Assembly: GCA_051362555.1 (NCBI GenBank)
Contig: CM120648.1
Coordinates: 18,968,587-19,032,586 of the forward strand
Origin: Lingula anatina
Taxonomy: Eukaryota > Animalia > Brachiopoda
DNA length: 64,000 bases
Direction of reading: 5' to 3'
In this document: positions 159 to 39,101 of the stretch, one piece after another
How the letters are laid out: every line of letters starts with the position of its first letter
How positions within the stretch are numbered: the first letter of the stretch is position 1
Notes under the pieces: generated by a model
Told to the model about the DNA's origin: nothing
Database searches by the model: none
What the model saw: the letters and a program-made list of their open reading frames with translations, nothing else
Translations under genes and position numbers: made by a program

Positions 159-3100
159 AATGTGACAACTAAAACTAAGGAATCCCATGAAATGAAGATG
201 TTAGCTTTGGAAAAGAAGTTTGAAATCTTGACGTGTAATCACAGTATAAGTGAAGGAAACGAGTCCTATGATGTCATCCTTTGGTTAGACGGGTTCGGGA
301 CAAAGTGGAACATGCATGAAGATTGCCCTAAAAAGGTTTGATTTTTTTTTTTTTTTCAATATTGTGTAACAAAGATATGTATACTATAATAAGAAGGCTA
401 TTTTAGGCATAAAGAGCATGTACTGTGATGATCATTGCTGATTGGTGTGAAAATATCAGTTTCTTAGATAATGATAGAGAGAGTGATCGATAGAATAAGT
501 TTAAAAATACCGTTTTGCATTTTAGGTTATTAAGTATGTGAAATTGTTGAAAAACTACCCAGAATATATCACATATGCCCTGAGCCCTAAAATGGTAGAC
601 AGAATTGATGTGTTTGTCTGCAAGATACACATCAAGCAGGAAATAGCCGAGGCTCAGGACATGAAAATTAAAGACCTGACATCCACTGAGTTTAACATCC
701 ACTGGAAGTTACCGGTAAGTCAGTAGGCAGAGACATGCTGAAACTATTGGTCCGTTCGGTCATGACACCATGCACCATATGGTATGGAATGCTTGACATT
801 GACCTGTTATAATGCATCTTGTATGATTTATATACCATAGTTTGTTCAAAGACTCATCTTCCTAGATACATGTATGTTTTAAATATCACCAGTTTTTGAC
901 TGATTTCTTTTTCCTTTTTCAACTGACCTTTCATAATACTACAGGGTTGCCAGTTAGTTCGGAAAATAAAATTCCCAGACTCTTTACTGTTCGAGATTTT
1001 TTTTTTTATTTGCTGCCTAATACCACCTAATTTTCCTGGCTCCACCTCACCAACAACCATCCAATTCATCCATAATTGTTTTTTTTTTTCATCAAACCAA
1101 CTTTTATTATGTTACGCGTGCGCCATTACCTCCATCTCTTTTCATACACATGCCCCGAGTCCAAGCTTATGACCTATTTTAATGGTACATATTTTAAATC
1201 CTGATGTTGCCAAATAGACCTTTGAGTGGAGACCTGGCACATTGAGATTCAAGTCCTGCTCTCAAAACAATTGACTGGCCTTGGTATTATGATAATAGGT
1301 CTGCATATCAGGTTTTTCATGAATTTATGGCAACATTGTGAAATTTTTTTCTCATCTGGTGTTTTCATTGTGTGGATATAAACACTCATGGACCTGAAGC
1401 TTTATGCTAGTTACATATTCCAAATCTCCATGTTATAATTACCTACTGAGCAGTGTTTGCCACTTATACCCCCTTTACACTGGACGGCGTCCTTTCTGCG
1501 ACCATGAAATTTGGCATCGCTGTGGTCTTAATAAGGAGGCAGGAGTATTGGTTTTGTATCAGAATGACTGCTCAATGATCGACCAGTTGTCAGCACGTAA
1601 AGTGTTATAATTTTTTAACTCTCAAATGGGGCTGAACTGCTGGATGCAGATAGGACGCCGTCCATTGTAAAGGGGGCTTTAGGAAAATAAGTTGGTGGAC
1701 CGAAAGCTCAGCCATCTTGAAAATTAGCTGGATGGAATGCCTGCCGGGTGGGAAAACTCCTCTGCTCATTCTAAAAGTTGTCTGCCCCGGGCAGACGGTC
1801 CAGCCTTAATTTCTAACACTGCTACTGAGCATAATTAAACTTTGGTTTTGCTGTTGTTGCTTAAAAAAATCTATTGATTTCTCCTTTTTGTTTGCACATT
1901 TGACAGCAACCTTTTCATTTCTCTTCTTTAAGAGAAGGCAAGGAAGTCTTTCTGGCCCTTGCAGAAATGCAGAGGAGGATCACTTCAGCAATATCCCTGT
2001 GTTTGGAAAAATCCTGCTCAGTATGAAGTATGACTACAGCAAAGGTTGGCTGATTATACATATTTACCGATGCCAAGACCTTGCTCCAGCTGATGTGAAG
2101 AAGAATAGATCTGATCCGTGAGTTTTTCTTTTGCTGTGTTATTTGCAAGATACGGTATAATTTGAGATCTTAATACCATGTGAAAGCAAAACATGTCATT
2201 TGTAGCTTATCTCCAACAAAAACAAAATTCATGGTGTTATCCAAATGTGTCAAACTTAACTCATTCACCTAATTTTTACACTGTTTAATTTATGATCGTA
2301 ATATTTTGAAATATCTCTGGGTTGCAGCTATGTCAAGACCTACCTCTTGCCAGATAAATCAAGAGGTGGGAAGAGAAAAACAAAGATAAAGAAGAATACA
2401 TTTAATCCAACATTTGATGAATTGCTGCATGTAAGTTTCAGCATAAACTGTAAAGAAAATAAAGAAAATACTGTTCTTTTAGTTGGTGCAAGGCTAAGCA
2501 TTCATGGTGAGCAATTCAGTGCATCAATAAATTGTTTTTTAATTAATGTACATGTTGTGATTTATCTGCTGACAGTCACCCACTATCCTGTTTCAGTACA
2601 CCATCACTAAGAATGAGCTGGAAAGAAGAACCCTGTGGTTGTCAGTCTGGCACAGTGTCACATTTGGCCACAATGTGCTCCTGGGTGATGTTGTTTTGCC
2701 TCTTAATAAACAGAACTTCAATGACACCTCACCACAGTGGTTCCAGCTATCAGGAGTAAGTTGGAGAAGTTACAGTAGTATTCAAAGCAATGTTAAATAT
2801 CAATTTTAAAAGCAGGTTGAAGCATATACAGCTACTTTTTAATGATGTTAATTATAATTTACAGACACATTGTGTTAATTTAGTTTGTGAATCCCAAGTT
2901 TTTCTGCAATACAGGACCATATGGCTGCTGGGGATCGAGACCAAGGCGTTACTTATGTTACTGACCCGCACAGCATCAAAACAACGAGAGGGCAAGTTCT
3001 AAACCAGGCTGATGTGGGCAACCAGTGGCAAAGGTCAACATTATTGGAGACATCATTACAACCCAACTTTGACAACCAGCAGGATGACTTCCAATCCCAG

Positions 3101-3973
3101 ACAACAAGAAAGACTGTTGTATCAGACCAATACCAACAAAACCAACCATCATCACAACCTACCTTTGGCAAGCAGTCGTTGCAACAAGGCAGTTTCCAAT
3201 CTCAGACACTACCTGGTGAGTCAGCAGGACCAAATATATCCTATCATCAACAAGTAGAATCCCAGCATAGCAGGCTACCTCAGGAACCTGTCACTGACCT
3301 CCACCTGCAGGAACAAGGTGGTGACCACATTCAAACAAGGAGGAAATCAAGCCATGACTTCCCATCTTTACCCCCACAACAGGACCCTGTGGCTGCTGAG
3401 GATCAAGACCAGCTTGCTACTGACCCTCAGACTATTAGAACAAAGGGAAGCCAAGTTCTTAACCAGGCCCATGGGGATAATCAGTTAGAAAGGTTACCTG
3501 CGGCAGTGACACATGAGATTGCTGGAGTTCTAAGACAGATTCCCACTAATACAAGCAGCATGCATATTACATTCAATGTTCAGCAGGTTTACCACAATTA
3601 CTCAGAAAAGGAATCAATGACAAGCATGAAAGAGAAAGATGTAACAGCGTCATTTCATAAACATGTCCCTACAAGTGTGAAAAAACGACTGAATGAGACA
3701 TTTTCTCAAGATGATGTATGGAACCAAGTAAAGAAGATGTATGGCATTTCAGATGAAACCCCATGTCCTCCTGATGTTGTGTCTTCTTTGTTGTCACAAG
3801 TTGATGGTTCCATTGCATCTTTCATCAGTGTGTTGTTAAAGTTAAAAGAACGCCACAGAGAAGGGCAGCAAGACATTCCACAAGACTTGATTAATGAAGT
3901 CAAGGTAATTGATAATATGGTCTAAAATATAGTCAAATAAAGTAACCAGTCTTTTAAATTTTAAAATGACAAT

Positions 3974-4021
<48 letters not shown>

Positions 4022-4655
4022 CCAAAACCATTTTTCAACGTATTCTTTCTCTGTAGTATAGTTCATTTCTTTATATTCCAAGTGAAAGAGTAAGAACTAG
4101 AACTAAATGTATGAGACAATGGGTTGGCTGTTTGGGATTGTTAAGTGAATTGTAAGTTGTTTATACAACGTCATGGTTTGAATGAATAGAAGTTGTAAAT
4201 AAATGTGACCTATTATATTTCTCTTCTAGAAAGGACTTATGAGTGAAATGGAGTACAACAGACTGAGAGAGAAAGTGGTTGACTTTGCTGAGGAACTTTC
4301 GATTCATATAGAAAGAACTTTAGATTACCTGTATCAGTTTAGTGTAATACCAGATGAGGAGACAACAAAGCTTAAAAATGATGCAAAGAGAAATCCACAA
4401 GAAGCTTGTAGAAATTTGTTTAAAGCACTCCTTGCGACCAGTCCTAAAAAAGAGCCAATTAAACACCTGAAAGCTGCATTCAGGGATTGTGGTCTTGGGT
4501 ATCTGGCAGATGAACTAGAAGTCAGCTACCAGGACGTAGAGGATGAAATACAGAAACATGGAAGTGGCCGACCTTCTTGTGAAGAGCCGTTGGCGATAGG
4601 AATGTCAGCTCCCCCCACACCTGCTACAGGTGAAAACCCTATTGGAGAACATTAA
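159..4655 (+). CDS. 3' part of a multi-exon gene: unknown N-terminal domain + synaptotagmin-like (Slp4/5-type) C2 domain + Q-rich linker + death-fold-like segment + CARD. Exons 159-335, 526-714, 1933-2117, 2328-2430, 2597-2755, 2915-3904, 4230-4655; the 5' end lies upstream of the window
   Basis: All introns are GT-AG and phases are compatible, giving one open frame. C2 signature: [11 protein letters not shown]...RCQDLAPAD...[36 protein letters not shown]...RTLWLSVWH. The last exon is CARD-like ([12 protein letters not shown]...[10 protein letters not shown]...CRNLFKALL...[18 protein letters not shown]). Confidence 0.8.
1467..1678. mobile_element. MITE with terminal inverted repeats
   Basis: CCCCCTTTACACTGGACGGCGTCCT at 1469 is mirrored by AGGACGCCGTCCATTGTAAAGGGGG ending at 1676. 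Confidence 0.65.
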
Positions 4656-4859
4656 AACTATGTGTACAGTATTTGACAGTATGTGTCAAGATTGTTTATG
4701 CTATTTGGGTCACCGTGGACTAAGAACGTATGGTGTATTGCCACATATATTGACATCAGACAAATAAAGTGACTCTCTGTATTTACTGATTTTGAACAAG
4801 CTTGCTGTTAAACTATAGTGACGTTCATATTTGCAGTTCAGCATCAACTGTGACCCTAA

Positions 4860-5245
4860 CTTTTAACAGGAAGATGACAGAAATTTTAAGCAAAACCCAT
4901 TGGCCCATGAAACCATCAATACTGTTAGGGGACTTCAATGTTGATTTGTCTTACAGTAGATTTAGAGCTCCTACAACCTCTGTTTATGTTCCTCTTTTAT
5001 AATACCACCAACAAGTTATTGTCTCACCAACATTGAGGTGTATCAAAGACACACTAGTGTTTTTGACCATTTTTTTATGTACAAGGTGTAAAACCAGTAG
5101 AAACAGGTACACTGCACCTATTACAGTGTCATGATCCTGTATATGCTATTATACCCATCTATGTACAAGGTGTAAAACCAGTAGAAACAGGTACACTGCA
5201 CCTTTTACAGTGCCATGATCCTGTATATGCTATTATACCCATCTG
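4860..5245 (+). pseudogene. Degenerate EEP/APE-type endonuclease remnant (transposon-derived, possibly Helitron/Helentron) with an ~84-bp tandem duplication of its 3' end
   Basis: Motifs ILLGDFNVDL, TSVFDHFF and CHDPVYAII occur in order but are broken by stops and frameshifts. ~5077-5160 is repeated at ~5161-5243. Confidence 0.5.
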
Positions 5246-5664
5246 TTTAAACTAGCTTATAAATTACTCCTTTAGTTCATTCCCACAAACAAAAATGGAT
5301 ATTTGTAAAAAGCACTGTATATATGTTAAAAAGCATCCATATGTATTTTATGTAAATATATTCTGATAATGTCAACACCATGTAATTTATGTAAATATAT
5401 CCCCTTAAAGATGGCAACACTACAAATACGTGGGAAGGTGTTTTAATATGTAAAAGAATAGTTTGTAAAGTATAGTTTGATAATTTTACTAGTGTATGCA
5501 TGTAAGTCCATTTATTATTTTGATATTATTCAAGGTGGATGTTTTTATATGAAGTACTGTATTAAATTATATTTACAAGAACACTGTATATATGTAGAAA
5601 GTTTTAATAAGCACTTTATGTTGATATATATTCCCTGAAAGAAGACAGCACCACAGATATTTAT

Positions 5665-5946
5665 CAGGCCTACCCAACTACCAGACTCGGCACATAAGGT
5701 TCCTGAATTAACCGGTATATCGGACCACACTACCCGTTTTCAAAGGTGTGTGTCAGATCGCATTTCAGAGTATCAGTCAGAACACTGACAGGATGAGCCT
5801 GCAGTTGTCCTACAAAATTTGTTCTGGGGTATGATACTCCAAAATGCAATATGACACACACACCTTGAAAACGGGTAGTGTGGTCTGATATACTGGTTAA
5901 TTCAGGATCCTTATCATGTGCCGAGTCTGGTAGTTGGGTAGGCCTG
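5665..5946. mobile_element. Foldback MITE with CAGGCCTACCC termini and 5-bp TSD (TTTAT)
   Basis: ~95-bp imperfect TIRs (CAGGCCTACCCAACTACCAGACTCGGCACA... / ...TGTGCCGAGTCTGGTAGTTGGGTAGGCCTG); TTTAT flanks both sides. Confidence 0.85.
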
Positions 5947-10509: not shown

Positions 10510-11583
10510 TTGGATTTATTTGTTGACTATAGCTCAGCATTTAATACTATTGTACCAAGCAAATTGTATTTTAAACTTTTGGATGATCTTAATTTTCCAC
10601 TAGCACTCTGCGATTGGATTTTAGATTTTCTTTTAAATAGAAAACAGTCAGTAAAAGTCGGTTTTAACTTCTCGGACACTATAGTTTTAAACACTGGCAC
10701 ACCCCAGGGCTGCGTCTTATCACCTTGTTTATATACGTTATTCACCCACGACTGTGTGGCGAGGGAGGAAAATACATTTTTAATGAAGTTTGCCGATGAC
10801 ACAACTTTAGTCGGCTTGATACACCATAATGATGAGAGGTCATACAGGCAGTCGGTTACAAGTTTAGTAAATTGGTGCACAGACAATGACTTGATATTAA
10901 ATGTGAGCAAAACAAAAGAAATGATCATAGACTTCAGAAGAAATCAGACAAGTAAAAATCCCTTGGAAGTTAACGGTAAAGCGGTCGAACAGGTTTCTAA
11001 TTATAAATTACTAGGGGTTCAGCTGAATAATAGGTTAACCTGGGGCGATAACATCACGAAGCTATTGAAAAAGGCACGTCAACGAATGTATTTCTTAAGG
11101 AAATTGAAAGCTTTTACCAGAAATGTGTTTATTCTAACGAACTTTTACAGGTGTGTTTTAGAGAGTATTTTAACTTATTCAGTAACTGTTTGGTATGGAC
11201 GTGCAACTGTGGAGGAGAGGAACAAGTTGGAAAAGATCGTCGAAACTGCAGAGATTGTAATTGGCACAGATCTAACTCCCGTCCATGCTATATATCTAGA
11301 CAGGACTAAAAAGAAAACATTATCAATAATGACAGACAGTTCCCATCCAGCCCATACCCTTTTTAAATTTTTACCTAGCAATTCGAGACTCTTAGCTTTT
11401 AAGGGTAGTAAGCGATTTTTAAATAGCTTTTATCCTTCGGCAGTAACTATTTTTAACTCTAACATATAATTTTAATTCTCATTCTTTATATTTCAATGGC
11501 GCTACTACAGGGCAAAAGATTCCCGATTTTATACATTTGTATTTTATTGGCTTAATAAATTATATTATTATATTATTATTATA
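10510..11583 (+). mobile_element. 5'-truncated Rex1/Babar-type LINE; RT ORF 10510-11469 with a (TTA)-rich 3' tail
   Basis: LFVDYSSAFNTI, GTPQGCVLSP, KFADDTT and LNVSKTKEMIIDFRR motifs; AATAAA followed by a TTATA/TTA tail at ~11554-11583. Confidence 0.9.
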
Positions 11584-11740
11584 TGAGGAATCACAAGTTT
11601 TGAATAATTTCAAAGCAGTTCTTAACAAATAAGAACTATGCTTGCAGTGCAGTTTATATAAAAGGGAGTATGTTTTCTATTGGTAAATGATGCATCAGGT
11701 TAAAATTATTGTCCGATGGTACCTTTTCTTTCCTTTTACA

Positions 11741-14700
11741 GATTGGTGTGTGGGTTTGGCGGTGCTCTGTTCATTTATTTCCACAGGAAAATTATCCACT
11801 TTATACGAAAACAGAGGAAATTGTCCTCCTTTCTCCAGAAGAAGTAAGTACCAGTTACAACAGGAGTCATCCACTGTATGTGACTTACAAGAGGGTAATT
11901 ATATGACGGTGTATAGTACAAGTAAGTATCAGTTACAACAGGAGTCATCCACTGTATGTGACTTACAAGAGAGTAATTATATGACGGTGTATAGTACAAG
12001 TAAGTACCAGTTACAACAGGAGTCATCCACTGTATGTGACTTACAAGAGAGTAATTATATGACGGTGTATAGTACAAGTAAGTACCAGTTACAACAGGAG
12101 TCATCCACTGTATGTGACTTACAAGAGAGTAATTATATGACGGTGTATAGTACAAGTAAGTACCAGTTACAACAGGAGTCATCCACTGTATGTGACTTAC
12201 AAGAGAGTAATTATATGACGGTGCAACTGATTTGCACATGTATATGTCACATACAATAGACCACAAGTGTTTGTAGAGCTGCTTCAAGCATTTATAGGAT
12301 GATTACACTTGTATTTTGCTTACAACACAGTGAAGCATGTTAATATAGATGAGCGAGCAATTATCCCATTGTTGCTAACAGTAAATGTTTTTATGATTGT
12401 TATCACATAAGGAAATGTTTGGGATAATTATGTGAAAAGGACATAGTGAAGATACCTTTTATTAGCATTCAGTTTATTCCCATTTTTTTGTGTGATATAA
12501 TGTGTAGTAAATATGACATGTTTTATTTATTTCAGTCGATTCATCTATCCAACTGTGATAACATTTTATGTGTAGATATAATGTGTAGTAAATATAACAT
12601 GTTTTATTTATTTCAGTTGATTCATCTATCCTACTGTGATAACATTTTATGTGTAGATATAATGTGTAGTAAATATGATGTGTTTTATTTATTTCAGTTG
12701 ATTCATCTATCCAACTGTGATAACATTTTATGTGTAGATATAATGTGTAGTAAATATGATGTGTTTTATTTATTTCAGTTGATTCATCTATCCAACTGTG
12801 ATAACATTTTATGTGTAGATATAATGTGTAGTAAATATAACATGTTTTATTTATTTCAGTTGATTCATCTATCCAACTGTGATAACATTTTATGTGTAGA
12901 TATAATGTGTAGTAAATATAACATGTTTTATTTATTTCAGTCGATTCATCTATCCTACTGTGATAACATTTTTGATATCCACTCTATCCTTTCCCTTGGG
13001 GCTGGGGCAGTATACAGCTGGAATGGTAAGTTTTCTGGAAACATTTTTCACAAGACAAGGGCTATCTCAATTGAAACAAACAAATGATTAGTTTGTCCGA
13101 TTTTTCCAACACAACTTACCAAACCTTTTCTGCATTAGTAATAGATACCTCAAAATGTACTGAGATTATACTGGAGAAAACTGCAGTGGTATCAAAGCAT
13201 AAATTACTTTCCACACACTTTCAGTTACATCATGGAGAAGTTCAGTGTACTTTCACTTCATACACCAAGAAGACCACTGTTCTTTTATTTGACTTACTTG
13301 AGAAGTCCACTGTACCTTCACTTAAATCACTGAGAAGTGCACTGCTTTTAATTTGGCTTACTGAGAGTCCAGTGTACTTTCAGTTAACTCACTAAAAAGC
13401 CCACTGTTCATTTTATTTGACTTACTGAGAAGTTTAGCGTACTTTCAGTTTTCTCACTAAAAAGTCCACTGTAATTTCACAGGCCTACCCAGCTACCAGA
13501 CTAGGCACCAAATGTACACATTTCACAGTATGATACCCGGAACAAATTTTGAGATGAGATGCACCATTTTCCAACCCCCGATGCACACCTTGAAAACAGG
13601 TATTGTGGTCCAATCTACCGGTGAATTAGGGATCATTGGGTGCTGAGTCTGGTAGTTTGGTAGGCCTGTTTCAGTTAACTCACTGAAAAGTTCAATGTAC
13701 TTTCAGTTAACTCACCGAGAGGTTCAATATTCTTTCAGTTAACTCACCAAGAGGTTCAATATTCTTTCAGTTAACTCACCGAGAAGCTGTGAATGAGTTG
13801 TTCAGTAACTTCACATGGTCCACAGGGAAAGCAGAGAACTTAGATCTGGACCAACTAGAGGTCCTCAGTCACTGGAATCACCCGGACACCAGCGTCTATG
13901 TCACACTGACTTTGTTTATTATTATACAGGTGAGATTTACTGGCTGTATGAGAAGACCAGATATCAACCCCAGTCTAATTGTATGAAGGTTTTAAGAGTT
14001 CCAAATTGGAAAATATATCAGTTTTAACTTAACTTTAAAATATGCCGTGTGTCAATGTAAGGTTTAAATATAAATATGGATATTTTAGATATATATAATT
14101 TTAAATCTTTGTGCACTGATTTTTATGGTGTGGTATGATCTTTCAGGTTCAGTAAGGTACAGTGTAATAATGGAGTGTTGTATAGAGTGATCTCACACAA
14201 ACAGTTAACTTGTAATAATAATGGATTACATTTGTTTCCAGTTTGTGACAGCTGCTTTGGCTGGTTCTCTCCCCATTCCTGCTGGAGTGTTCATTCCTGT
14301 CTTCACTATAGGTAAGTTGTGTCATCATTTCAACACTTACTGTTGCCTTGTCAACTATTCCCCATGCTGCGGACTGCGCAATGACATATTAAAGGAAAGC
14401 TTTTTTAATAACATTTCATTTTGTTTTGTTGTGTTTGTTAAAATTGATAACATGACTGTTCAGCAGTAGGTATGAGCAGTTTGAGTTCAGGTACATTGAT
14501 AATTCTTTATTCATTTGAATAATTTTCATCATCCTTGAATAATAATCTACTAATTAATTATATATGGGTGGAAACTGAATTTAAAAATGATGCAAATGAA
14601 AGAGAATTTTAATAATTATGCTGTTCCGTGAAAAGTTTAACTTGAAAAGCACTGACCTTGACCTACAGTGACCTTGACCTACAGTGACCTGTCCACTCTG

Positions 14701-17121: not shown

Positions 17122-20100
17122 TGTCTGGTGTCTTTGCAGCACTTACAATGTGTTTGTGGAGGACTTCATGATCCGTGACATCAGGTTTATCAGCTATATC
17201 GCCACATACCAGGATGTGAAGAATCTATTGGAGACATCCAAGTTAAGGACATTCCCATTGGTGGATGCCCCAGGTAAAGTACACAGACATGTGTGGTAGC
17301 ACTGGTAAAGTTTTGATTCTTTCCTACCAATCAAATGGAGAAGTGCCTGAAATCCCAATCAGGAATCTCTAATGTGTTTTTAACCAGGGATGGAACCATG
17401 GTTCGTGGAAGCAGTGTTGAACCAGTAAGGTTTTTTGTTTAAAGCATAATATATGTATGAAAGCTCTTCTGTCTGCCCTTAATTTGTCCTGTCTGTTATA
17501 CCTTGAACATAGCACTGGCATAACAGGAACTCTGCTAGATTCTAAGACATGAGATTTAATAACTGAACTATATGCACAGTTATGTAGTCTTCTTACTGAG
17601 TGTTATATTCTTGGATGTCAGTTTTACATGATATTATCAGGTTGTATTGATGTATTTCATTTTGGCACTTTCCTTTGATATTCTAATGAGCTTTTTCATC
17701 TAACAGCTTAAACTGAAACACATTAATTTTTAAGTTTTAGGACACTAATATATAGTTGGGTGTGTACGGTATAATGCTATGCCATTCAGAAGACAATCAT
17801 ATCCATTATGTTGTGTATATTTCCAGAGTCCATGATTCTCCTTGGGTCTGTACAGAGACTGGAGCTGGATCTGCTACTGGAGGCTCAGCTTGGAAACAGC
17901 GCCGCCTGGCAGCAGTGGAAGAGGCATTACATAAACGGCAACAGGAAGAGGAGGAGAGGAAGAGAGCCAAGGAACAGCTGGAGAAGAGGAAGTCCCAAGG
18001 CGATACCGAGGGGACGCGACCAATGGCGGCCTGCAGTGGAGATATGTTGAACGCTGTGAAGGTCCACCGTCAGCCGTCGGCCAGGTTTACGGTGACCCCT
18101 GCCGCCAGCAAGGTGGACAGTGGTGGACAGGTCCAGTTGAAGCTGGACTCCACGGTAAACAGTGTGTGTGTGTTTGTGGATTTGAATGATAATCATAGGG
18201 ACCATTCCACAGATTTTTGGAGCAATCTATCTCCCAGGGGAGCCTCACTAAATTACTATCAACTTAACCGGCTTTAGTGTCTTTCAGGCCTAGTAAAGCT
18301 GTTAGGGGGTAATTATCTTTACCCCCTAGCTTATTTGGTGGCTGTGACAGACATTTAAGCCAGTTATTTTAAAGCAATTTATTAAGACTTCCCAGGGATG
18401 GACCGATCTAGGCATGAGAACCCAGTCTTAATCTTTATTAACCAGAGAGTTGTGATAATATATGTGAAATGATATTACTACATTATCTCTGCCATCATTC
18501 CAGCCACCAGAACAAACAGCTAATGGAGACACGCTGAAACCACACAAGTACACCAAGGCACCACAGAGAGGGATATTAAAGAAGAGTCCCCGTCCCAGCC
18601 CCCGGGCTAGTCCCAGGGCCAGTCCTAAAGGAAGTCCTCAGTCTTCACCTCGCTCTAGTCCACCAGGGTCTGCCAAGACAAGCCCCACACCCAGTCCACA
18701 GTTAGGTTAGCCAGCTCTGGGCAACTACACTGGTCTGAAAGTTAACTTTTGATGGATTAAGAATATGGCTAAGTTAAAGGACTGTCTAGAAAATATTCCA
18801 GTTTTTGTTAAAATCACACTGCAATTTCTCAGAAAAAAAAAGAATGGTAGGCCTATGGTGTATATAATTTGGTATAAAAAAACGAATGATCATGAATAAT
18901 TATTTAAAATTACTGAATTAGAGTAATGTGATTATTAAGTAATCTTTACATTAGATTGATACAAGATGAGGTTAAAAATTGCTTACATTTAAAAAGATAA
19001 TTTTAACCCTCTATAACAGGTACCTATATAGTATATACACCCTTAGGTTTATTTACCATCACACTATTGTTTTCCATGTACCTTTCTCTGTTTATTTTGA
19101 TAATGAAGTTTAATTGATTTTGATTTTACAGAAAAGAAATTCAGCATTGGGCTGGCAAAGATTTTCAAATCTCGAAGTAAAGAAAATATCGCGGACAGTA
19201 CGGCTTCCGAAGATGATGAAGCTCAGGTAACTTTGGCAACAAACTGATAAACAGCATGGAATATTTTAGTTTAAAAGTCAATATTTACAGGGTTCTGTAT
19301 TCTACTTATGAAGGATTAGCAGTGTGAGGACTCAAGTATATCTACATTATATTATATTATACATAGCATCGTGATTATCATAAGAGACATATATATATAT
19401 ATCTATATCATATTATATATAGCATCGTGAGGGTAGTGGCTAAGTTTACATTTATCAATTTATCTGTGTTTAATATTATTTTTTATTTATTTATATCTTT
19501 TGCATGTGCTGTAAGTCTGCATACATGAAGTACCAGTTTGAAGTGAAAAGTTAATACTTGAAGATATATAATATATATATAGTAATAGAGTGACCATGAT
19601 GTAAGGTTTTAGAGTATGATACTGATATTTAGGTCATCCAGCACTTGGGTTACACCATTAAAACTACCTGAAGGTCAACATACCTGTATCTACCAGGTTT
19701 GTCAACTGTTTGCCCTCTGAGTCAGTACAACAGTTAGTGTGTGGTATTACACCATTAAAACTACCTGAAGGTCAACATACCTGTATCTACCCAGGCTTGT
19801 CAACTGTTTGTCCTCTGAGTCAGTACAAGTGTCCTCCCAAGGAGGCTTGACATCATCGACTAGTAGCTAAGAAAAAAAGGACGTAAGCGACCTTTAAGAT
19901 TCTTTGTGAAACTCGACTTAGTGACGTAATGACTTGGTAACCAAGGTCTTAGTTAGGGAAACCGACCTAAGTTTTTTTGTGAAACGGGGGCCTGAAGGTC
20001 AGCATACCTGTATCTGTCCAGGCTTGTCAACTGTTTGCCTTCTGAGCCAGTATAACAGTTAGTGAATGATATTCCCGTGCTTTAAAGTCAACTTCTGTGT

Positions 20101-23100
20101 GCAAGTTGCACTTAGTGATGCACTTAGTGATTCATTCTCATGGTCTGTCTGTTTTGGAGAAATGAACATCTTGACTGGAAATGAAATGGTCTTGGTATCA
20201 TTTGTATGTATGCTATCATATTATATTTCACTATTGACAGGATTCCTCCCTGTATGAGTTGTATGTATGTTATCATATTATATTTCACTATTGCCAGGAT
20301 TCCTCCCTATATGAGTTGTATGTATGTTATCATATTATATTTCACTATTGCCAGGATTCCACCCTGTATGAGTTGTATGTATGCTATCATATTATATTTC
20401 ACTGTTGACAGGATTCCTCCCTGTATGAGTTGTATGTATGTTATCATATTATATTTCACTATTACCAGGATTCCTCCCTGTATGAGTTGTATGTATGCTA
20501 TCATATTATATTTCACTATTACCAGGATTCCTCCCTGTATGAGTTGTATGTATGTTATCATATTATATTTCACTGTTGACAGGATTCCTCCCTGTATGAG
20601 TTGTATGTATGCTATCATATTATATTTCACTATTGACAGGATTCCTCCCTGTATGAGTTGTATGTATGCTATCATATTATATTTCACTATTGACAGGATT
20701 CCTCCCTGTATGAGTTGTATGTATGTTATCATATTATATTTCACTATTACCAGGATTCCTCCCTGTATGAGTTGTATGTATGCTATCATATTATTTTTCA
20801 CTATTGCCAGGATTCCTCCCTGTATGAGTTGTATGTATGTTATCATATTATATTTCACTATTGACAGGATTCCTCCCTATATGAGTTGTATGTGTGCTAT
20901 CATATTATATTTCACTATTGACAGGATTCCTCCCTATATGAGTTGGACCCTGAGTCAGACAGGTTCTTACACAGGCGTGGCAAACATGCCCATGTAAAGT
21001 TGGTAAGAAGATGGCTGCTGCTTAACAAACCACTTTTTATTTGATCATGTGACTTGTTATCTAGTCATGTGACCACAGCTTTTGACCACATGTTTTGCCA
21101 TTGTTTCACAACTTTTGACTGCAGTGTGTAGGTAATTTAATTTTTGTAGCAGATTGCTGTGATTGTGTTTTATCATAACCCATTTTATGTTTGTAGTTTC
21201 AAGCAAGACTGTTGCCATTGTGTGGCTTAGTTTTAGTTTTCTTATATGGTAAAATTTTCAGAGCTGCCCTTGTGTCTGTAAGTATAGCTTGATGATTGCA
21301 GTTGTCAAAGTGTGCAGGTTGTTATCAATTTTCTGTTTGGATTTTGCTAAGAATAATATTGGAATGCTGTTGTTTTGCTGTGATCATTTTTGAGGATGAG
21401 ACAAAGGCATGACTACAGGTAATGTTGTTATAGATAGACTTAGGAAACTATAGAGAAATACACTTATATAGCTGATTAAAAAGAACAGAACCCATTTGTC
21501 AAAATGTAATGAAAAGTACATTCTAATCATTTTGTAGGGGTGTTCTAACAAAAACAGCATCTGCACCAAAAGCTGCTTCTGTTTTGATATTTTTTTCTGC
21601 TCGCAGTGAAAACCAATATGTTTTGTCTACAAAATCATTTTCATTTGTATTGAAGCATATAATTTGAGACTCTGACTGCTTGGATTGATATACAGTTTTA
21701 TTTTATAAAAAATTGTATTATTATTTTCTTTCTTGTCATCAATTAATAGTCTTCACATCCAAAAGAACTTCATAGCAACCAAGATGAGACACTATAAAAC
21801 CTGGACTGGTTTTCTAACTGTTCATGTAGTTCAAACCCCATAAATGTGTCTGGCATATTTAATAAACGACACATGCAGATATCAAAGAATCGTCAAAAGT
21901 TGGAGCACATTTACTCTCCCTAAAGGTTGCCGCCTTAGTGCAGAGTATCAATTTGTGAAATTGTCCTCTCTTGTTGTTCACTGGCTGTGGTAATTGAGTT
22001 GTGTTATCTTGTAAACTGTTATGAGGGGAATTATGCAATGGCTGCTGCCCAGAAACCTATTAAATATATAGATAAACACTGATTTATAACATTCTCAACA
22101 GATGATATTGTGCAAACAATTCTGTTGGGAAGTATAAATTGGCATATGAACAAAAACCAGTTGAAAATCAAGATGAACATGCACTGATATTGACAGGGGT
22201 CAGCTGCTCTCTGCTTTCTCTGTGCACCAGTTTATAATTACTAGTTGTACATATTTGGGGAAGTTCCTTAACTGACTGCCACTCCCCCACCACTCCTTCA
22301 CAATGGTGATCTTCATCTGAAATCTACTAATGAGACTATCATGTTTCTTACTACTATCTATACTTTCCTGTGTACATCATTAATACCTTGCATGTTGAGG
22401 CCTGGTGGCCTAAAATATCTTATGATTTATGGTGGTTCATCCATTGGCATGCTTTAATAATATGTCTTTATGTTTACTAACACCTTTATTATTTGATTTC
22501 AGTTGTCAAGAAATACCCTTCCTCCTTACTTTCTCTTTAAATTTTATAGTACAGGGATGGGAGCATCCTCCTTCAAATTTTGAATTACAGGGATGGAAAT
22601 TTCCCAAGGTTTTAGCAGAAAAGACAACTACATTTTGTTAGAAATGCTACAAGAGTAGGAGACGTCAGTGTTGAAAAGTAGGTGCAGGTTCCTTTCTCTC
22701 CAAACATTGTTTGTTCCCATCCCTGTACATGATATGTAGCAGTTAAAACACCATTAAACCAGCACTTTGATGTGCAGCATATTTAAGACACCATTCCCAG
22801 AGCCTATCGCACTAACTTTGGATCGGTTCAGGGGGATTCCCACTAAATTGCTATCAAATTAAGCAGTTAGATGTCTCTCACACCCACTGAAGCTGTCAGG
22901 GGGTAATTAACTCATTAAGCAGCTTAAGTAGGTGTGCCAGACATCTAAGCTGCTTAAACTGAAAGCAATTTAGGGAGAAACCCCTTGGAGATAGTTCAAT
23001 CTTCTAAGATCGATCTAGGCATGGTAACCCAGTCTTATACCTTATTAGTCAACTCTCACTAGTGGGCTAGATTTGGTCTTAAAGTGCAATTTAAGTTCAC

Positions 23101-26100: not shown

Positions 26101-28242
26101 ATTTTCTAAATTCTATTTTCTATTCGCGCTATCTTATGATCACGGTCTGTGCACTGAATATCCCGCGGCGTAATTACTGGCAGCGCGAGCCAGTTACTAT
26201 AAGTTACTATAAGTAACTGGCTCGCGCTGCCAGTAATTACGCCGCGGGATATTCAGTGCACAGACCGTGATCATAAGACATACCGAAAATAGAAAATAGA
26301 ATTTAGAAAATAGACATTGCATGTGAACGAAGCCTTAAGTAGTTTTTCTTCAATCAACAGCTAATATTTGGCAGCAAATATTGCCTCATTCCATGATGTA
26401 GATACTCATGAGAGACATTGAAATATTGGAGGTAATTATTAGCTGCCAGTATTCACTGGTCATTGAAGAAAAATGTCTTTATTCTTAAACTGACATATTG
26501 TTAATGTTGTTTAGTTCAGTCAAACCCAACCAAAGAATTTAAAACCATGTTCAGAAGAGGCAGATGAAGGCGGTTATTTTGACAGAAGCTTCGAAACCAG
26601 AAAGAAAGTGACCAAGTGTATAATAGGCCAATTTATCTGCTGCTTCTTTAAAAATATATGTTACATTTTGTTTACTTATTGATGTCAGGGGCATATAATA
26701 AGGGTTGAAATGTCAAATAATTGACATAAAGTGTGACCTATACCATCCCATCCCCAGGTACTCATAGTAGTTAAGATGTGAATTATGGTTTTATCCTAGA
26801 TATTCAATATTAGTACTTGAACCTAACTCACACTGCTTCATTTTGACAGCCTTAAGTCATGCCAAAAACTATAAGTATAATAGTATAAATATTTCACAAC
26901 TGTCACTATGAATGAAAATCATAATATTTAATCAATAACAAAAATAAAAAAAAAATAAGTCTTGAGATTCAATTTTGTAAGAAACTTACATAAAAGTGTA
27001 TCACATTCTATTGAATTACAACTTTATAGGCTAAGAATTGGTTAAATTCCTTCTTGGATCACTATAAGGCTTTTGCAGTTAAGATGGAAGGCTTTATTAT
27101 ATGAAGCAGGGTCTGGCTCTGTAGATATTAATGACAACCTGTTTTATTGCTCTCTGTAGATGTAAAATGACACAGTTGTTATTACACTGGGTCTGGGTCT
27201 GTAAATTCCATTGCTGGTCAGTTTTATTTCTTCCAGTAGTCATAAAATAGCACAGCTCTCAGTGGCAGATATTAAGAGGGGTGTCAGGGGGGTCCTGACC
27301 CCTCCCCTCCCCTTTGATTACTGAGAAAAAAATCACACCTATAATTCCTCTTGAAATTATAATTTTGTGTAGCTTAATCATAGTTTTAAACTATACCAGA
27401 TGTCACCATTCACCAAATAAAATACCAAAATATCAGTGTTTGGGTGTAGTGAGACATCTTTACAATGTTTTTTTTAAACATGGTGTGACATTGTTTTGAC
27501 AGTGGTGTGGTATATTTGGACATAGTGTGACATTGTTTTGACAGTGGTGTGGTATATTTGGACATAGTGTGACATTGTTTTGACAGTGGTGTGGTATATT
27601 TGGACCTAGTGTGACATTGTTTTGATGTTAGTGTGATGTTGTTTGGATGTTTTGACATTTTTACAGTTTTTTTTTTCTCGGACATGGTGTGACATTTTTT
27701 GACAGTGGTGTAATATTTTTGACAGTAGTGTGACATTGTTTTGACACTGATGTTTTTTCTGTAGCAAAGACAGTGGGAGGAAGAGCAGTTGAAATGTCAG
27801 GTGAAGTTTGAAGAGGCTCAGATAGACCCCGCCCCCTTCCAGCTAGTGGAGAGGACTTCCTTACAGAAAGTAAGATGAAAAAAAAACAGAACATTTAGAA
27901 AATGCATGGCTGGTTTTCAAGAATGTTCATTTTATCTGCATCTCTGTCTTTTACATAAATAAAACTTTCCAAAATTCAATAATGACTGGGGAATTGAAAA
28001 AAGAGAGGATCATTTAATCAAAATAAAATTTAGCATCAATGCAGAGGAATCTGTCGAAGTGTTTCAGCTTATTCTTGGAAGAAATGGATCCATCATAATG
28101 GCATGGGAGAACTGAATTGTACATGCATTCTTTACAGTACCTAAGTAGTTAAGACTTCACCGTTTCACTTCTTTCTCACTATGTGGTTGTGGCTATGTTT
28201 CAGGTTCAGGTGGAAGTGAGGGAACGGTCGGATAGTGAGGCT
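11741..28242 (+). CDS. CLCN2: ClC-2/ClC-a-like chloride channel, C-terminal two-thirds, apparently defective. Exons 11741-11842, 12941-13025, 13771-13929, 14242-14311, 14824-14934, 15456-15553, 16189-16304, 17140-17273, 17827-18154, 18504-18705, 19132-19226, 20925-21002, (23980-24069), 25951-25986, 27765-27869, possible terminal exon 28204-28242
   Basis: The spliced translation gives [115 protein letters not shown]1 (VEDFMIRD...[18 protein letters not shown]), [18 protein letters not shown] and [14 protein letters not shown]. Phases fit except for a -1 frameshift at 17894-17896. Confidence 0.92.
11841..12222 (+). repeat. 78-bp tandem repeat, ~5 copies, each starting with the splice donor AA|GTAAGT
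   Basis: Direct periodicity, seen as the 26-aa pseudo-repeat in ORF 11687. Confidence 0.95.
12494..12971 (+). repeat. 81-bp tandem repeat, ~6 copies, each with a splice acceptor plus the first ~30 nt of a CLC exon
   Basis: TTTATTTCAG|T(C/T)GATTCATCTATCC recurs every 81 bp. Confidence 0.95.
13240..13785 (+). repeat. Degenerate ~32-bp tandem repeat containing the acceptor TTTCAG|TTAACTCAC, interrupted by a MITE
   Basis: Near-perfect copies at 13668-13785 and increasingly diverged copies upstream. Confidence 0.8.
13480..13668. mobile_element. Second copy of the CAGGCCTACCC MITE, 5-bp TSD TTTCA
   Basis: Same TIRs as 5665-5946; TTTCA flanks both sides. Confidence 0.85.
14845..15112 (+). repeat. 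87-bp tandem triplication of a CLC exon end plus donor (in frame, no stops)
   Basis: ...[11 protein letters not shown] occurs three times in ORF 14856; donors follow 14934, 15021 and 15108. Confidence 0.95.
15502..16085 (+). repeat. 77-bp tandem repeat, ~7.5 copies, of the last 52 nt of a CLC exon plus donor GTAAGA
   Basis: TGTGATAG...CCTGCTGTG|GTAAGACAACTG recurs every 77 bp. Confidence 0.95.
16282..16950 (+). repeat. 32-bp tandem repeat, ~21 copies, of a CLC exon end plus donor (CCAG|GTAATA)
   Basis: GATATCATCCCCACCAAGTCCAGGTAATATGT periodicity. Confidence 0.95.
18198..18430. mobile_element. Degenerate MITE of the same family as 22786-23035 and 57918-58131
   Basis: Shared 3' end GATCTAGGCATG...AACCCAGTCTTA and similar internal layout. 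Confidence 0.55.
19650..20065 (+). repeat. ~100-bp unit in three copies, with a MITE-like fragment (~19830-19992) between the second and third
   Basis: CCTGAAGGTCA(A/G)CATACCTGTATCT...GTCAACTGTTTG at ~19667, ~19764 and ~19991. Confidence 0.7.
20203..20945 (+). repeat. 57-bp tandem repeat, 13 copies, each with an acceptor (CAG|GATTCC) and a GTATGT donor-like motif
   Basis: Acceptor AGs are spaced 57 bp apart from 20240 to 20924; the last copy runs into the real exon. Confidence 0.95.
22786..23035. mobile_element. PIF/Harbinger-type MITE (degenerate)
   Basis: Imperfect TIRs, TTA-type flanks, and similarity to 57918-58131. Confidence 0.6.
23057..23413. mobile_element. CACTA-like MITE with 3-bp TSD (TCT)
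   Basis: TIR CACTAGTGGGCTAGATTTGGTCTTAAAGTGCAATTTAAG / CTTAAATTGCACTTTAAGACCAAATCAAGCCCACTAGTG; TCT on both flanks. Confidence 0.85.
24436..24892 (+). repeat. 29-bp G-rich minisatellite, ~15 copies (GGGTCAGAGGTGAAGTGAAGGTCAGGGAG)
   Basis: Direct periodicity. Confidence 0.95.
26078..26334. mobile_element. Near-perfect foldback PIF/Harbinger-type MITE with TTA TSD
   Basis: ~120-bp arms GGCTTCGTTCACATGC... / ...GCATGTGAACGAAGCC around a short centre; TTA on both sides. Confidence 0.9.
27470..27748 (+). repeat. ~42-bp tandem repeat directly upstream of a CLC acceptor, containing TTTTGACAG
   Basis: GTGTGACATTGTTTTGACAGTGGTGTGGTATATTTGGACATA periodicity. Confidence 0.85.
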
Positions 28243-28539
28243 TGAACTACATCAACTCATCAGATAGTGAGGCGTAAATAATAATTGCTCATGGTCAGTT
28301 TGGGACAGAAAGGAAAGTGAAGCACATGGAAACTGAAATATTTTATCAGGACATGAAATATGCCAGAAGACAGTGAAGAGAACATTACTAGGAGCTGTGT
28401 ACCAGTAGAGAGAGAGGAGAGTATGAACTCTTTAACATTGGTGCTGTGGTCACAATACTTGGTGTTTACCATGTACCCCCCTCTCACTGCTGACATTATG
28501 CATTTAGGGAGTTATCAAAATAAAGAACAAAGAGATATG

Positions 28540-28890
28540 GCATGTCATGATAGTCCATGACTTGACAGTCAGTGTCATGGTAACCATTGCCATGACAATA
28601 TGCCATGACAGTGCATGACCTGACATTCAGTATATGGTAATTGTTGCCATGACAATATGCCATGACAGTGCATGACCTGACATTCAGTATATGGTAATTG
28701 TTGCCATGACAGTCCATGACCTGACATTCAGTACCATGGTAACCATTGCCGTGACAATATGGCATGACCGTCCATGGCCAGACATTCAGTATCATGGTAA
28801 CCGTTGCCATGGCAACATGGCATGACAGTCCATGACCTGACATTCAGTACCATGGTAACTGTTGCCATGACAACATGCCATGACAGACTA
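28540..28890 (+). repeat. ~45-57-bp degenerate tandem repeat rich in GTTGCCATG(G/A)CAA and TGACCTGAC
   Basis: Direct periodicity. Confidence 0.85.
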
Positions 28891-37270: not shown

Positions 37271-37300
37271 AAAAAGAGGAAGAGACTTTCAACATGAATA

Positions 37301-38383
37301 ATGTCAGATAGAGAGGGACCAGTCACCAGACAGACATCCAGAGGAGAACGTATTCTATCCGAAAAGAGGATGGCAACGGGACAAACAAAGGAAATGAAAG
37401 GTAAGGAAGAACCTTTTGATTTTTTAGATATTCGAGACCATTTAGAAGACATTCACATGAAATTAGATGTTATGGGCAAGGGTGACCCTCTTTTACAAGC
37501 AGTTCAGAGGCAACTTACAGAATTAAATGAAAAACCAACTTCCGTTTTTGCCGGTCCAAATATCGATACATTCTTTGGCTTTTCAACAGAAAACGCGCGG
37601 TTATGGCTTACGAGGTCTGAAAATTACTGCAATTTGAATAAATATTCCCCAGATCGGAAATTGCATGCCTTTATGCTATACATGAAAGGTCCAGCTGAAA
37701 TATGGTTATCCGAATTGTCTGACGCAAGAAAATCGAGTTACGATGTTCTTAAAACCGAATTTCAAAACAATTTCGACAGACAAACGTCAAAATGGACTAG
37801 AGAACACGAACTCGGAGAAAGAAAACAAGCAGAAAATGAATCCATCGAGGTTTACATCGCAGATATGCGACACCGTTTTTCTCTGCTTAATAAAAGCGCG
37901 GACGATAGACTCGCGTATTTCGTGAGAGGGTTACGGAACGAAATAAAACGTTTTGTTATTGCGCAAAACCCATCTAATTTAGAAGAAGCAGAAAATCATG
38001 CACGATTAGGGTCAACAATTGCATCAATACCAGTTGAAAACGAAAAGCCGGAGATCGTAACATCTGTCTCTGGAATTGAGAAAAATCTCCAGCGAATAAT
38101 GGAACAGCAGGAAAAACAAATTAATGACATTCGCCGGGAAATTAGACGCGAGCAAGTAGGAAAACAACACTTTGCGGGAACACCGTACTGTTCTTACTGT
38201 CGTAGGAACGGGCACACATATGCTGCGTGTCGGCGTCAAAAACAGACCACAGGGGGGCCCCGTTGTTTCAAATGCAACAGATTTGGGCATATACAGAAAT
38301 TTTGCAGATCATTTCCAAATTCCCGACAACAAAATACTCGAGGGAGGCAAAACTTTTACAATGGGAACCGAAATTTAAACTAG
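37301..38383 (+). CDS. gag: Gag with capsid domain and two CCHC zinc knuckles
   Basis: 360-aa ORF; RKQAENESIEVYIADM (MHR-like); CSYCRRNGHTYAAC and CFKCNRFGHIQKFC. Confidence 0.95.
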   Translation: MSDREGPVTRQTSRGERILSEKRMATGQTKEMKGKEEPFDFLDIRDHLEDIHMKLDVMGKGDPLLQAVQRQLTELNEKPTSVFAGPNIDTFFGFSTENARLWLTRSENYCNLNKYSPDRKLHAFMLYMKGPAEIWLSELSDARKSSYDVLKTEFQNNFDRQTSKWTREHELGERKQAENESIEVYIADMRHRFSLLNKSADDRLAYFVRGLRNEIKRFVIAQNPSNLEEAENHARLGSTIASIPVENEKPEIVTSVSGIEKNLQRIMEQQEKQINDIRREIRREQVGKQHFAGTPYCSYCRRNGHTYAACRRQKQTTGGPRCFKCNRFGHIQKFCRSFPNSRQQNTRGRQNFYNGNRNLN

Positions 38384-38453
38384 AACGGCAAAAATCACAA
38401 ATTGGAAAAGAACGGGGTGAATTTTGCCAACATATTTCTAGGGGCACCCGTTC
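38374..38453 (+). promoter_or_regulatory. -1 ribosomal frameshift signal: slippery T TTA AAC plus H-type pseudoknot
   Basis: Heptamer at 38374-38380 just before the gag TAG; 6-nt spacer; stem 1 38387-38398/38417-38428; stem 2 38410-38416/38447-38453; pol lies in the -1 frame. Confidence 0.85.
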
Positions 38454-38815
38454 GATCATGGCATGTGAAAAGGAAATAAAATTAGGGAAAAACAATTTTG
38501 TAGAACTGCTCATCAATGGAATCAAAATTAGTGCTTTGATAGATACAGGATCATATGTTACAATTGTGAATACCGACCTATTACGGAAACACGACACTCT
38601 AAAATCACTACGTATCATAACATCTACAGAAACGACAGCTGTGGCTGCAAATAACACACGAATCACATTGAAAGGGCAAGTGTCAGTAGATTTGCGTTTC
38701 CCTGGTGGATACAATTCTGTTAACACGTTAGTGCAAACAGCTGATAATATTGGGTATGATATGATTATTGGGAATGATTTCCTGAGAGAAAACAGAGCGA
38801 TTATAGATTTCACTA
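38374..38815 (+). CDS. pol: Pol N-terminus: aspartic protease, interrupted by a MITE
   Basis: ALIDTGS and MIIGNDFL motifs. Confidence 0.9.
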
Positions 38816-39099
38816 CCCGCACGAAAATGCAGTAGTATCGAAGTAGCAAAGAAGCATTAACGCAGTAGTGGTATGGAGCATATTTGCAGTAGAAATGCAG
38901 TATAGCCTACTGCAATTCTACTTCAAAAATTACATAGGGTTGTACAGAGGAGGAGCATTAATGCAGTAGATTAGCAGCATGATAGAAGCATGTTTCAAAT
39001 ATGCTAATTAGCTCCCACATCGAAGCAGATTTGAAGCATGTTTGCAGTATGATTGCAGTAGTCTACTGCGCTGGAGTATCTACTTCGTTTTCGTGCGGG
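38816..39099. mobile_element. 284-bp MITE (CCCGCACGAAAA TIR, TA TSD, subterminal GCAGTA/GAAGCAT repeats; EnSpm-like) inserted in Gypsy pol
   Basis: TA|CCCGCACGAAAA...TTTTCGTGCGGG|TA; removing it restores ...IDFTKHTVRLSKKSYPVKAIKNVL in frame. Confidence 0.92.
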
Positions 39100-39101
39100 T
39101 A

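What the first reader, a model, noticed from the sequence alone, without database searches (positions are those of the whole stretch)
159..4655. Unusual C2 + death-fold + CARD protein
Seen: an Slp4/5-type C2A domain in three exons is spliced in frame between an unrelated N-terminal domain and a Q-rich linker, a helical death-domain-like segment (~3620-3904) and a terminal CARD. Known: Slp proteins are SHD-C2A-C2B vesicle-trafficking factors without death folds. Loop 3 reads [13 protein letters not shown] and lacks the Ca2+-ligating Asp residues, so lipid binding is probably Ca2+-independent. Inference: an exon-shuffled, membrane-targeted death or immune adaptor. The first two exons may be the UPA part of a ZU5-UPA (PIDD/DTHD1-like) module (weak).
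Basis: partly seen in the sequence, partly recalled or inferred. Interest (0 to 1): 0.7.

Follow-up and report, generated by a model that had tools for sequence, protein, structure and literature searches.

The report
Death adaptor with captured membrane-anchor exons
A spliced, expressed gene, most likely of the brachiopod Lingula, belongs to a species-restricted family of death-fold proteins but carries three extra exons for a C2 domain most like that of the vesicle-trafficking protein Slp4, which likely tethers this predicted cell-death or immune adaptor to the plasma membrane without calcium.

Summary
Seven AG/GT exons (159-4655) splice in frame into a 742-residue, 5'-incomplete protein: UPA, C2, Q-rich linker, six-helix domain, CARD. 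RNA reads join C2 exon to C2 exon, C2 to the linker exon, and linker exon to CARD exon. The UPA-to-C2 joint was not listed, and no single molecule spans the gene. All 17 homologues found are labelled Lingula anatina. They form a ZU5-UPA-[variable exons]-Q-rich-death fold-CARD family; 5 of 6 paralogues with the same UPA end lack C2, so the phase 0-0 C2 cassette is an insertion. Two other Lingula models carry it, one of them an unverified IAP fusion. The C2 is closest to Slp4 C2A; it keeps the PIP2 lysine cluster and lacks 3 of 5 calcium-binding aspartates. UPA and CARD are well supported by fold in close paralogues; the middle domain is a divergent death fold (Z 5.8). Likely role: a calcium-independent, membrane-anchored death-fold scaffold; untested. 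A new architecture within a known pattern of invertebrate domain shuffling.

The parts
159..335 (+). Exon 1 (internal, phase 0-0): middle of a UPA domain; the gene continues upstream of the window
   Evidence: Splice sites; 55-69% identical to paralogues P0008/P0010/P0011/P0014/P0015; UPA fold of P0011 110-262, TM 0.81 to UNC5 UPA; read depth fits a start at 159
526..714 (+). Exon 2 (phase 0-0): end of UPA; its donor opens the family's variable slot
   Evidence: 58-76% identical to paralogues, which diverge straight after this exon's last codon
1933..2117 (+). Exon 3: first exon of the captured C2 cassette (short lead-in, first strands, loop 1 with two aspartates)
   Evidence: Best PDB hit Slp4 C2A; same start point in P0012 and P0013; joint to exon 4 in 5 of the 6 runs laid
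2328..2430 (+). Exon 4: C2 polybasic strands with the lysine cluster (2329-2394)
   Evidence: Pfam C2 E 2e-5; alignment of P0012 to Slp4 C2A and residue ranges in PMC7857503
2597..2755 (+). Exon 5: C2 loop 3 (2645-2686, no aspartates, phenylalanine kept) and last strands; phase-0 end of the cassette
   Evidence: Pfam C2 E 4e-6; joint to 2915 in run X7, 8 reads from 4 starts, 44 letters on the short side
2915..3559 (+). Exon 6, 5' part: Q/P-rich, predicted disordered linker with an internal duplication (2915-3035 resembles 3383-3494, 71%)
   Evidence: 17% Q and self-match; three listed length variants in reads change it by multiples of 3; low pLDDT for the linker end in P0001
3560..3601 (+). 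Short N/Q-hydrophobic motif before the helical module, resembling a RHIM (recalled resemblance; no Pfam support)
   Evidence: Aligned in 12 of 13 rows of A4, its Asn kept in 11 of 13; no Pfam hit
3641..3904 (+). Exon 6, 3' part: six-helix domain, divergent death fold (subfamily unresolved)
   Evidence: Model of window 3620-3922, pLDDT 78; first 27 rows and 38 of 50 rows of the wide search are death-fold chains, best Z 5.8, rmsd 3.7 over 86; Foldseek found none
4230..4655 (+). Exon 7: CARD (to about 4530), short acidic helix, disordered tail, stop
   Evidence: Pfam CARD E 3e-4; P0001 model aligns to Apaf-1 CARD at Z 14.8, rmsd 1.2 over 88; joint from 3904 in X4 (35 reads) and X7 (14 reads)
4656..5640 (+). 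Probable 3' UTR (end not fixed)
   Evidence: Continuous depth of 20-38 in run X4, on the strand expected for a + transcript; poly(A)-signal hexamers at 4763 and 5561

Best explanation
This is a spliced, transcribed member of a Lingula-restricted ZU5-UPA-death fold-CARD family that has gained a three-exon Slp4-type C2A cassette, likely by exon shuffling, and the C2 is predicted to anchor the protein to PIP2-rich plasma membrane without calcium, where its tandem death folds would nucleate a signalling complex. Shown: exon structure, later splice joints, domain identities, absence of C2 from most paralogues. Inferred from known families: the lysine cluster binds PIP2 and anionic lipid as in Slp4 C2A; UPA promotes oligomerisation as in CARD8 and NLRP1; the CARD recruits a CARD caspase or CARD adaptor (Lingula is reported to have six caspase-Y paralogues and CRADD but no APAF-1 or caspase-2). 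The captured module changes where the adaptor sits, not what it signals with.
For: In-frame model, cassette bounded by phase-0 introns. Joints C2-to-tail and tail-to-CARD in RNA reads. Six paralogues share the UPA end; 5 of 6 have no C2 and continue into three different sequences. P0012 and P0013 carry the same cassette at 95% and 86%, with the same start and the same following exon, without stops, so one capture has been kept and copied. Slp4 K398, K410, K412 and F452 equivalents are kept, and the C2 core has net charge +9. CARD Z 14.8; death-fold rows dominate for the middle domain; UPA TM 0.81; ZU5 in P0011, P0016, P0019. Mechanistic precedent: PMC7794386 (abstract), PMC3210808 (passages), PMC11463336 (passages).
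Against: No functional data. The 714/1933 joint was not listed in either lay, and no paralogue has UPA spliced directly to C2 (P0012 has 116 residues between them). In run X4, exon 1 is several-fold deeper than the C2 exons; in X1 and X3 the C2 exons have reads while exons 1-2 and 2822-3038 have none. Many reads therefore come from paralogues or other isoforms, and reads cannot be pinned to this locus. Slp4 R451 and R454 equivalents are lost (T, H); in Slp4, triple mutants that include these two lose membrane localisation in cells. Listed read differences in the C2 exons are 5 non-synonymous to 4 synonymous (partial list), which shows no strong constraint. The middle domain's Z is below 8, and Foldseek gave no death-fold row.
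Confidence: 0.55

Rival explanations
1. The C2 capture is a recent, nearly neutral product of a fast-recombining gene cluster: the chimera is transcribed and intact, but C2 adds nothing that selection keeps.
For: The family shows many unrelated fusions (NHL, second death-fold module, K/D-rich exon, IAP), truncated models and a broken NHL paralogue in this window. Low C2 read depth; loss of two basic loop-3 residues; no excess of synonymous differences.
Against: Three copies of the cassette, 86-95% identical, all keep an open frame and the lysine-cluster segment (no P0013 difference falls in it); the introns are spliced in five runs.
Confidence: 0.22
2. It is a membrane-tethered inhibitor or decoy (like CARD-only proteins or FLIP) that sequesters death-fold partners rather than activating them.
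For: No enzymatic or NACHT domain in the part seen; divergent middle death fold; two paralogue models end before the CARD (P0012, P0015); one cassette copy is modelled on an IAP.
Against: UPA plus a C-terminal death fold is an activating arrangement in CARD8, NLRP1 (PMC7794386, abstract) and PIDD; the IAP fusion is an unverified partial model.
Confidence: 0.13
3. The UPA exons and the C2-tail exons belong to different transcripts or isoforms, so the real protein is C2-linker-death fold-CARD with another 5' end, or the cassette is mostly skipped.
For: Joint 714/1933 not listed; depth mismatch between exon 1 and the C2 exons; P0013 is a 5'-partial model that begins exactly at the cassette.
Against: Matching phase 0; no start codon context or slot-exon remnant found in intron 2 (best E 0.22); P0012 has UPA upstream of C2 in one model; X4 has about 96 read letters at 1917-1995 with none on either side, as expected of a couple of reads spliced in at 1933 (indirect).
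Confidence: 0.1

Closest known systems
CARD8 / NLRP1 C-terminal ZU5-UPA-CARD (FIIND-CARD)
   Same: UPA followed by a C-terminal CARD; ZU5 upstream in paralogues; one paralogue (P0008) has Phe-Ser at the ZU5 end, the kind of site cleaved in CARD8 and PIDD.
   Different: UPA is of the UNC5 type and no FIIND Pfam hit was found; a C2, a long Q-rich linker and a second death fold lie between UPA and CARD; autoproteolysis cannot be tested for this gene.
UNC5 / UNC5CL / PIDD1 / ankyrin ZU5-UPA-DD supramodule
   Same: ZU5-UPA with a death fold downstream; best structural matches of the UPA are UNC5 and UNC5CL.
   Different: About 390 residues separate UPA from the death fold; there are two death folds; no LRR, Ig, TSP or ankyrin repeat appeared in Pfam scans of the homologues.
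Synaptotagmin-like proteins (Slp4/granuphilin) C2A
   Same: Best PDB match; lysine cluster and loop-3 phenylalanine kept; incomplete aspartate set.
   Different: A single C2 with no C2B behind it and no Slp homology domain in the part seen; R451 and R454 equivalents lost; fused to death folds.
CRADD/RAIDD, RIG-I tandem CARDs and other two-death-fold adaptors
   Same: Two adjacent death folds, here joined by one continuous helix in the model.
   Different: Order is death fold then CARD at the C-terminus; sequence relatives were found only in Lingula.
Lineage-specific expansions of death-fold proteins with constant and variable regions in sessile marine invertebrates (PMC8195603)
   Same: Constant death-fold module with variable flanking domains, expanded in a brachiopod.
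   Different: That paper's passages concern DED/TRADD-N modules and contain no 'C2 domain' mention; this family's constant part is a death fold-CARD tail.

Membership tests
Synaptotagmin-like protein (Slp) | Tandem C2A-C2B at the C-terminus | tested here: not met
   One C2 only; reads join its last exon to the Q-rich exon
Synaptotagmin-like protein (Slp) | N-terminal Slp homology (Rab27-binding) domain | not testable with these tools
   5' end lies outside the window and no genome is held; UPA occupies the part seen
Slp4-type C2A domain | PIP2-binding lysine cluster (K398/K410/K412 of Slp4) | tested here: met
   P0012-to-3fdw alignment; window identical to P0012 there; numbering from PMC7857503
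Calcium-dependent C2 domain | Five acidic calcium ligands in loops 1 and 3 | tested here: not met
   2 of 5 kept; the three loop-3 positions of synaptotagmin-1 C2A align to H, V, V
ZU5-UPA-death-fold proteins (UNC5/PIDD/ankyrin type) | UPA domain | tested here: met
   Through paralogue P0011 (63% identical over exons 1-2): TM 0.81 to UNC5 UPA; Pfam UPA_SH3BP4 only E 0.09
ZU5-UPA-death-fold proteins (UNC5/PIDD/ankyrin type) | ZU5 directly upstream of UPA | not testable with these tools
   Outside the window for this gene; present in P0011, P0016, P0019
ZU5-UPA-death-fold proteins (UNC5/PIDD/ankyrin type) | C-terminal death fold | tested here: met
   CARD by fold and a second probable death fold
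CARD8/NLRP1 (FIIND) | FIIND-type ZU5-UPA | tested here: inconclusive
   No FIIND Pfam hit in the UPA-bearing paralogues; FIIND appears only as a 0.79 feature lead, while structure rows are UNC5/SH3BP4 type
CARD8/NLRP1/PIDD1 autoproteolytic proteins | Phe/Ser self-cleavage site at the end of ZU5 | not testable with these tools
   Exon outside the window; of 4 paralogues that cover the site, P0008 has Phe-Ser, P0011 Phe-Cys, P0016 and P0019 Leu-Cys
PIDD1 | LRRs plus two ZU5 domains before UPA-DD | tested here: inconclusive
   No LRR in Pfam scans of 17 homologues, several of which are 5'-partial; this gene's 5' end is unseen
CARD | Six-helix CARD fold | tested here: met
   P0001 model (85% identical to exon 7): Apaf-1 CARD Z 14.8, rmsd 1.2, 88 aligned; rank 1 is a de novo designed protein at Z 15.2
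Death domain (DD) proper, for 3641-3904 | DD-type six-helix bundle distinguishable from DED and PYD | tested here: inconclusive
   MyD88 DD Z 5.8, PEA-15 DED 5.6, PYD 5.2 are tied; no Pfam death-fold hit; Atlas features 0.75-0.78, leads only
RHIM amyloid motif | Match to the RHIM profile; amyloid formation | tested here: inconclusive
   No Pfam family at E up to 10 for the window segment or for 4 of 4 segments from distant paralogues; the resemblance is recalled; amyloid formation untested
CRADD/RAIDD | Two-domain CARD-then-DD adaptor | tested here: not met
   Opposite order, and UPA, C2 and linker present

The most novel reading that the evidence does not exclude
Lingula runs a plug-in family of CARD8-like or PIDD-like platforms in which a constant RHIM-like motif-death fold-CARD tail is re-aimed by swapping whole exons into a slot behind UPA. 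This copy would be a lipid-anchored version: released by ZU5 self-cleavage, parked on PIP2 by a C2 taken from the secretory machinery, and activating caspase-Y in an animal reported to lack APAF-1 and caspase-2. The same cassette may also have reached an IAP, giving activator and inhibitor the same membrane address.
Probability: 0.15. Interest if true: 0.7.

Novelty: new variant of a known kind. Interest (0 to 1): 0.42.

Why it matters
It is a clear, exon-resolved case of a trafficking module being captured by a death-fold signalling family, with sister genes before and after the capture available for comparison. If C2 does relocate the platform, it shows how invertebrate immune adaptors gain new subcellular addresses, and it offers candidate activators for the unexplained CARD caspases of brachiopods. 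Domain shuffling of death-fold proteins in marine invertebrates, and in Lingula generally, is already reported (PMC8195603, PMC4595640), and the architecture is confined to one species in these searches, which limits the surprise.

Tried and rejected
No genome is held, so upstream exons and the donor Slp gene could not be examined. The search with exon 3 returned only P0012 and P0013 among 3 candidates and covered proteins of 108-2000 residues only, so a long donor Slp would have been missed. Foldseek gave no match at E 0.001 or better for either model; for the middle domain it listed no death fold among the rows shown. Pfam's Phage_connect_1, GUCT and 7TMR-HDED rows on the helical part are under cut-off and were rejected as chance. 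Pfam did not support a RHIM. Independent swapping of the CARD exon: the CARD tree sets four UPA-bearing paralogues apart on a 0.6 branch (100/100) that the middle-domain tree lacks, but the middle-domain data do not reject that clade (p-AU 0.093; P0005, P0007, P0012, P0015 and P0017 left out as isoforms, lacking a CARD or lacking the middle domain), so it is unproven. No remnant of paralogue slot exons was found in intron 2. The RefSeq name of P0012 (RIM1) was rejected: RIM C2 chains score 52-53 bits against 114 for Slp4. Earlier findings of this scan: nothing returned. No complex prediction was run, since no candidate partner sequence was in hand.
Full report
Gene model. The window begins inside an animal gene. 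Seven exons (159-335, 526-714, 1933-2117, 2328-2430, 2597-2755, 2915-3904, 4230-4655) have AG acceptors and GT donors and give one open frame of 742 codons. Exons 3-5 form a cassette with phase-0 introns on both sides. No genome is held, so the 5' end is unseen.

Expression. Six of the nine listed RNA runs were laid. One search lists joints equivalent to 2117/2328 (X1, X3, X4, X7), 2430/2597 (X7, 5 reads), 2755/2915 (X7, 8 reads, 4 starts) and 3904/4230 (X4 35 reads, X7 14 reads); one search adds 2117/2328 in X8. Stranded depth fits a + transcript with a 3' UTR to at least 5640. Joints 335/526 and 714/1933 were not listed; one search hid 22 rows, and one search listed only four joints. Depth in X4 fits reads that begin at 159 and 526, and about two reads entering at 1933, which is indirect. 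Reads on exon 1 differ from the window at about 3-5% of sites, and depth is uneven between exons, so some reads come from alleles or paralogues. The evidence supports the architecture in the species, not a single molecule from this locus.

Organism and family. Three word-index searches (5 of 390, 4 of 24 and 2 of 3 candidates) and one full HMMER search of 1.84 billion representatives (9 hits) gave 17 distinct proteins, all labelled Lingula anatina; five unnamed cluster members of 43-47 residues were not examined. None is the window's own protein. The tail (linker, helical domain, CARD) recurs with different fronts: NHL repeats (P0003), a second divergent copy of the tail (P0004), UPA (P0008, P0009, P0010, P0014), ZU5-UPA (P0016) and DD-CARD-ZU5-UPA (P0019). 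Six paralogues share the last codons of exon 2 and then diverge into three kinds of sequence; five have no C2, and P0012 reaches the C2 116 residues later. The C2 cassette is thus an insert in a variable slot. P0012 (95%) and P0013 (86%) start the cassette at the same residue and continue into the same exon, which points to one capture followed by copying. P0013 is a partial model that goes on into BIR-BIR-BIR-UBA-RING; it may be a prediction chimera.

Domains. UPA: exons 1-2 are 63% identical to P0011 155-256, which follows a ZU5 (E 3e-10) and whose Atlas model matches UNC5 UPA at TM 0.81. C2: Pfam; Slp4 C2A at 114 bits against 80 for the next single-C2 chain (P0012). Mapping through that alignment and the residue ranges in PMC7857503 (passages), the lysine cluster and F452 are kept and R451 and R454 are lost; 2 of 5 calcium-site aspartates remain. 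CARD: the P0001 model (pLDDT above 90 in the folded part) aligns with Apaf-1 CARD at Z 14.8. Middle domain: modelled alone from the window (six helices, pLDDT 78), its first 27 and 38 of 50 structural neighbours are death-fold chains (two of these judged from the aligned range of NLRP-containing entries), but Z is only 5.8, DD, DED and PYD are tied, and Foldseek shows none. A short motif at 3560-3601 is aligned across the family and resembles a RHIM from recall only; Pfam gives nothing.

Mechanism. The most likely reading is a scaffold: C2 binds PIP2 and anionic lipid without calcium, as shown for Slp4 C2A (PMC7857503, passages); UPA lowers the threshold for assembly, as in CARD8 and NLRP1 (PMC7794386, abstract); the tandem death folds recruit CARD or DD partners. 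PMC11463336 (passages) reports six caspase-Y paralogues, CRADD and FADD in Lingula and loss of APAF-1 and caspase-2, which makes caspase-Y or CRADD natural candidates. Self-cleavage after ZU5 (PMC3210808, passages) is possible: 1 of 4 paralogues covering the site has Phe-Ser, but the exon is outside the window. All of this paragraph is inference. Rivals are a neutral chimera, a decoy, and separate transcripts for UPA and C2.

Comparison and novelty. It works like a ZU5-UPA-death-fold platform but is not shown to be CARD8, PIDD1 or CRADD, and it is not an Slp. Nine paper searches (listings and abstract starts) found no description of this family or of a C2-death fold-CARD protein: one search's eight listings appear from their titles to use the terms in other senses (not opened), and one search returned none. 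PMC5094078 (passages) notes a C2 added to an oyster TIR-GTPase protein, so C2 in invertebrate immune proteins has precedent. PMC8195603 (passages) describes constant-plus-variable death-fold expansions in brachiopods, and PMC4595640 (passages) describes domain shuffling in Lingula. PMC11874512, PMC4262963 and 10.1101/2023.07.13.548768 were seen as passages only. Supplements were not read; the architecture tables of PMC8195603 could list this combination. The library lacks most subscription papers.

Verdict. It is a new architecture within a known mode of evolution, with function untested. Interest 0.42.

Noticed in passing
window 61590-62298 (+): NHL-repeat exon 81-83% identical to the N-terminus of P0003/P0006/P0007, the NHL-tail fusion of the same family, but lacking about 77 codons and changing frame near 62000: a broken paralogue, suggesting the window lies in a family cluster.
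   Followed up: partly
P0013: The same C2 cassette plus the start of the Q-rich exon is modelled at the N-terminus of an IAP (three BIR, UBA, RING); partial model, possibly a chimera.
   Followed up: partly
window 3905-3925: The exon 6 frame runs six codons into the intron to a stop; paralogue models P0012 and P0015 end in just this way, without CARD. RNA depth in this intron is near zero, so a CARD-less isoform is rare here.
   Followed up: partly
window 4230-4540 against P0008/P0009/P0010/P0014: Two CARD types among close paralogues (82-88% against 56-59% identity to the window), while the preceding domain is 75-87% in all; exon swap or fast CARD evolution, not resolved.
   Followed up: yes
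window 3060-3250: RNA reads show linker length variants of net -96, -45 and +66 bases, all multiples of three.
   Followed up: no
P0016 1-60: The N-terminus looks like the end of a TIR domain (recalled resemblance; no Pfam hit).
   Followed up: no
window 37298-42790 (+): LTR retrotransposon of Ty3/gypsy look: gag with zinc knuckles, protease, and a 1243-codon pol ending in a chromodomain-like segment (read from ORFs; not scanned).
   Followed up: no
window 10510-11466, 45929-46936, 49407-50084 (+): Reverse-transcriptase-like ORF pieces of non-LTR elements (read from ORFs; not scanned).
   Followed up: no
window 1460-1830 and 5665-5946: Short inverted-repeat elements, heavily covered by reads from elsewhere in the genome; the second has a related copy near 13.5 kb.
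   Followed up: no
window 11687-13084, 20185-20994, 27413-28843: Tandem minisatellite arrays that give long repetitive ORFs on both strands.
   Followed up: no
window 17756-18274 (+): ORF with a charged coiled-coil-like stretch, perhaps an exon of another gene.
   Followed up: no
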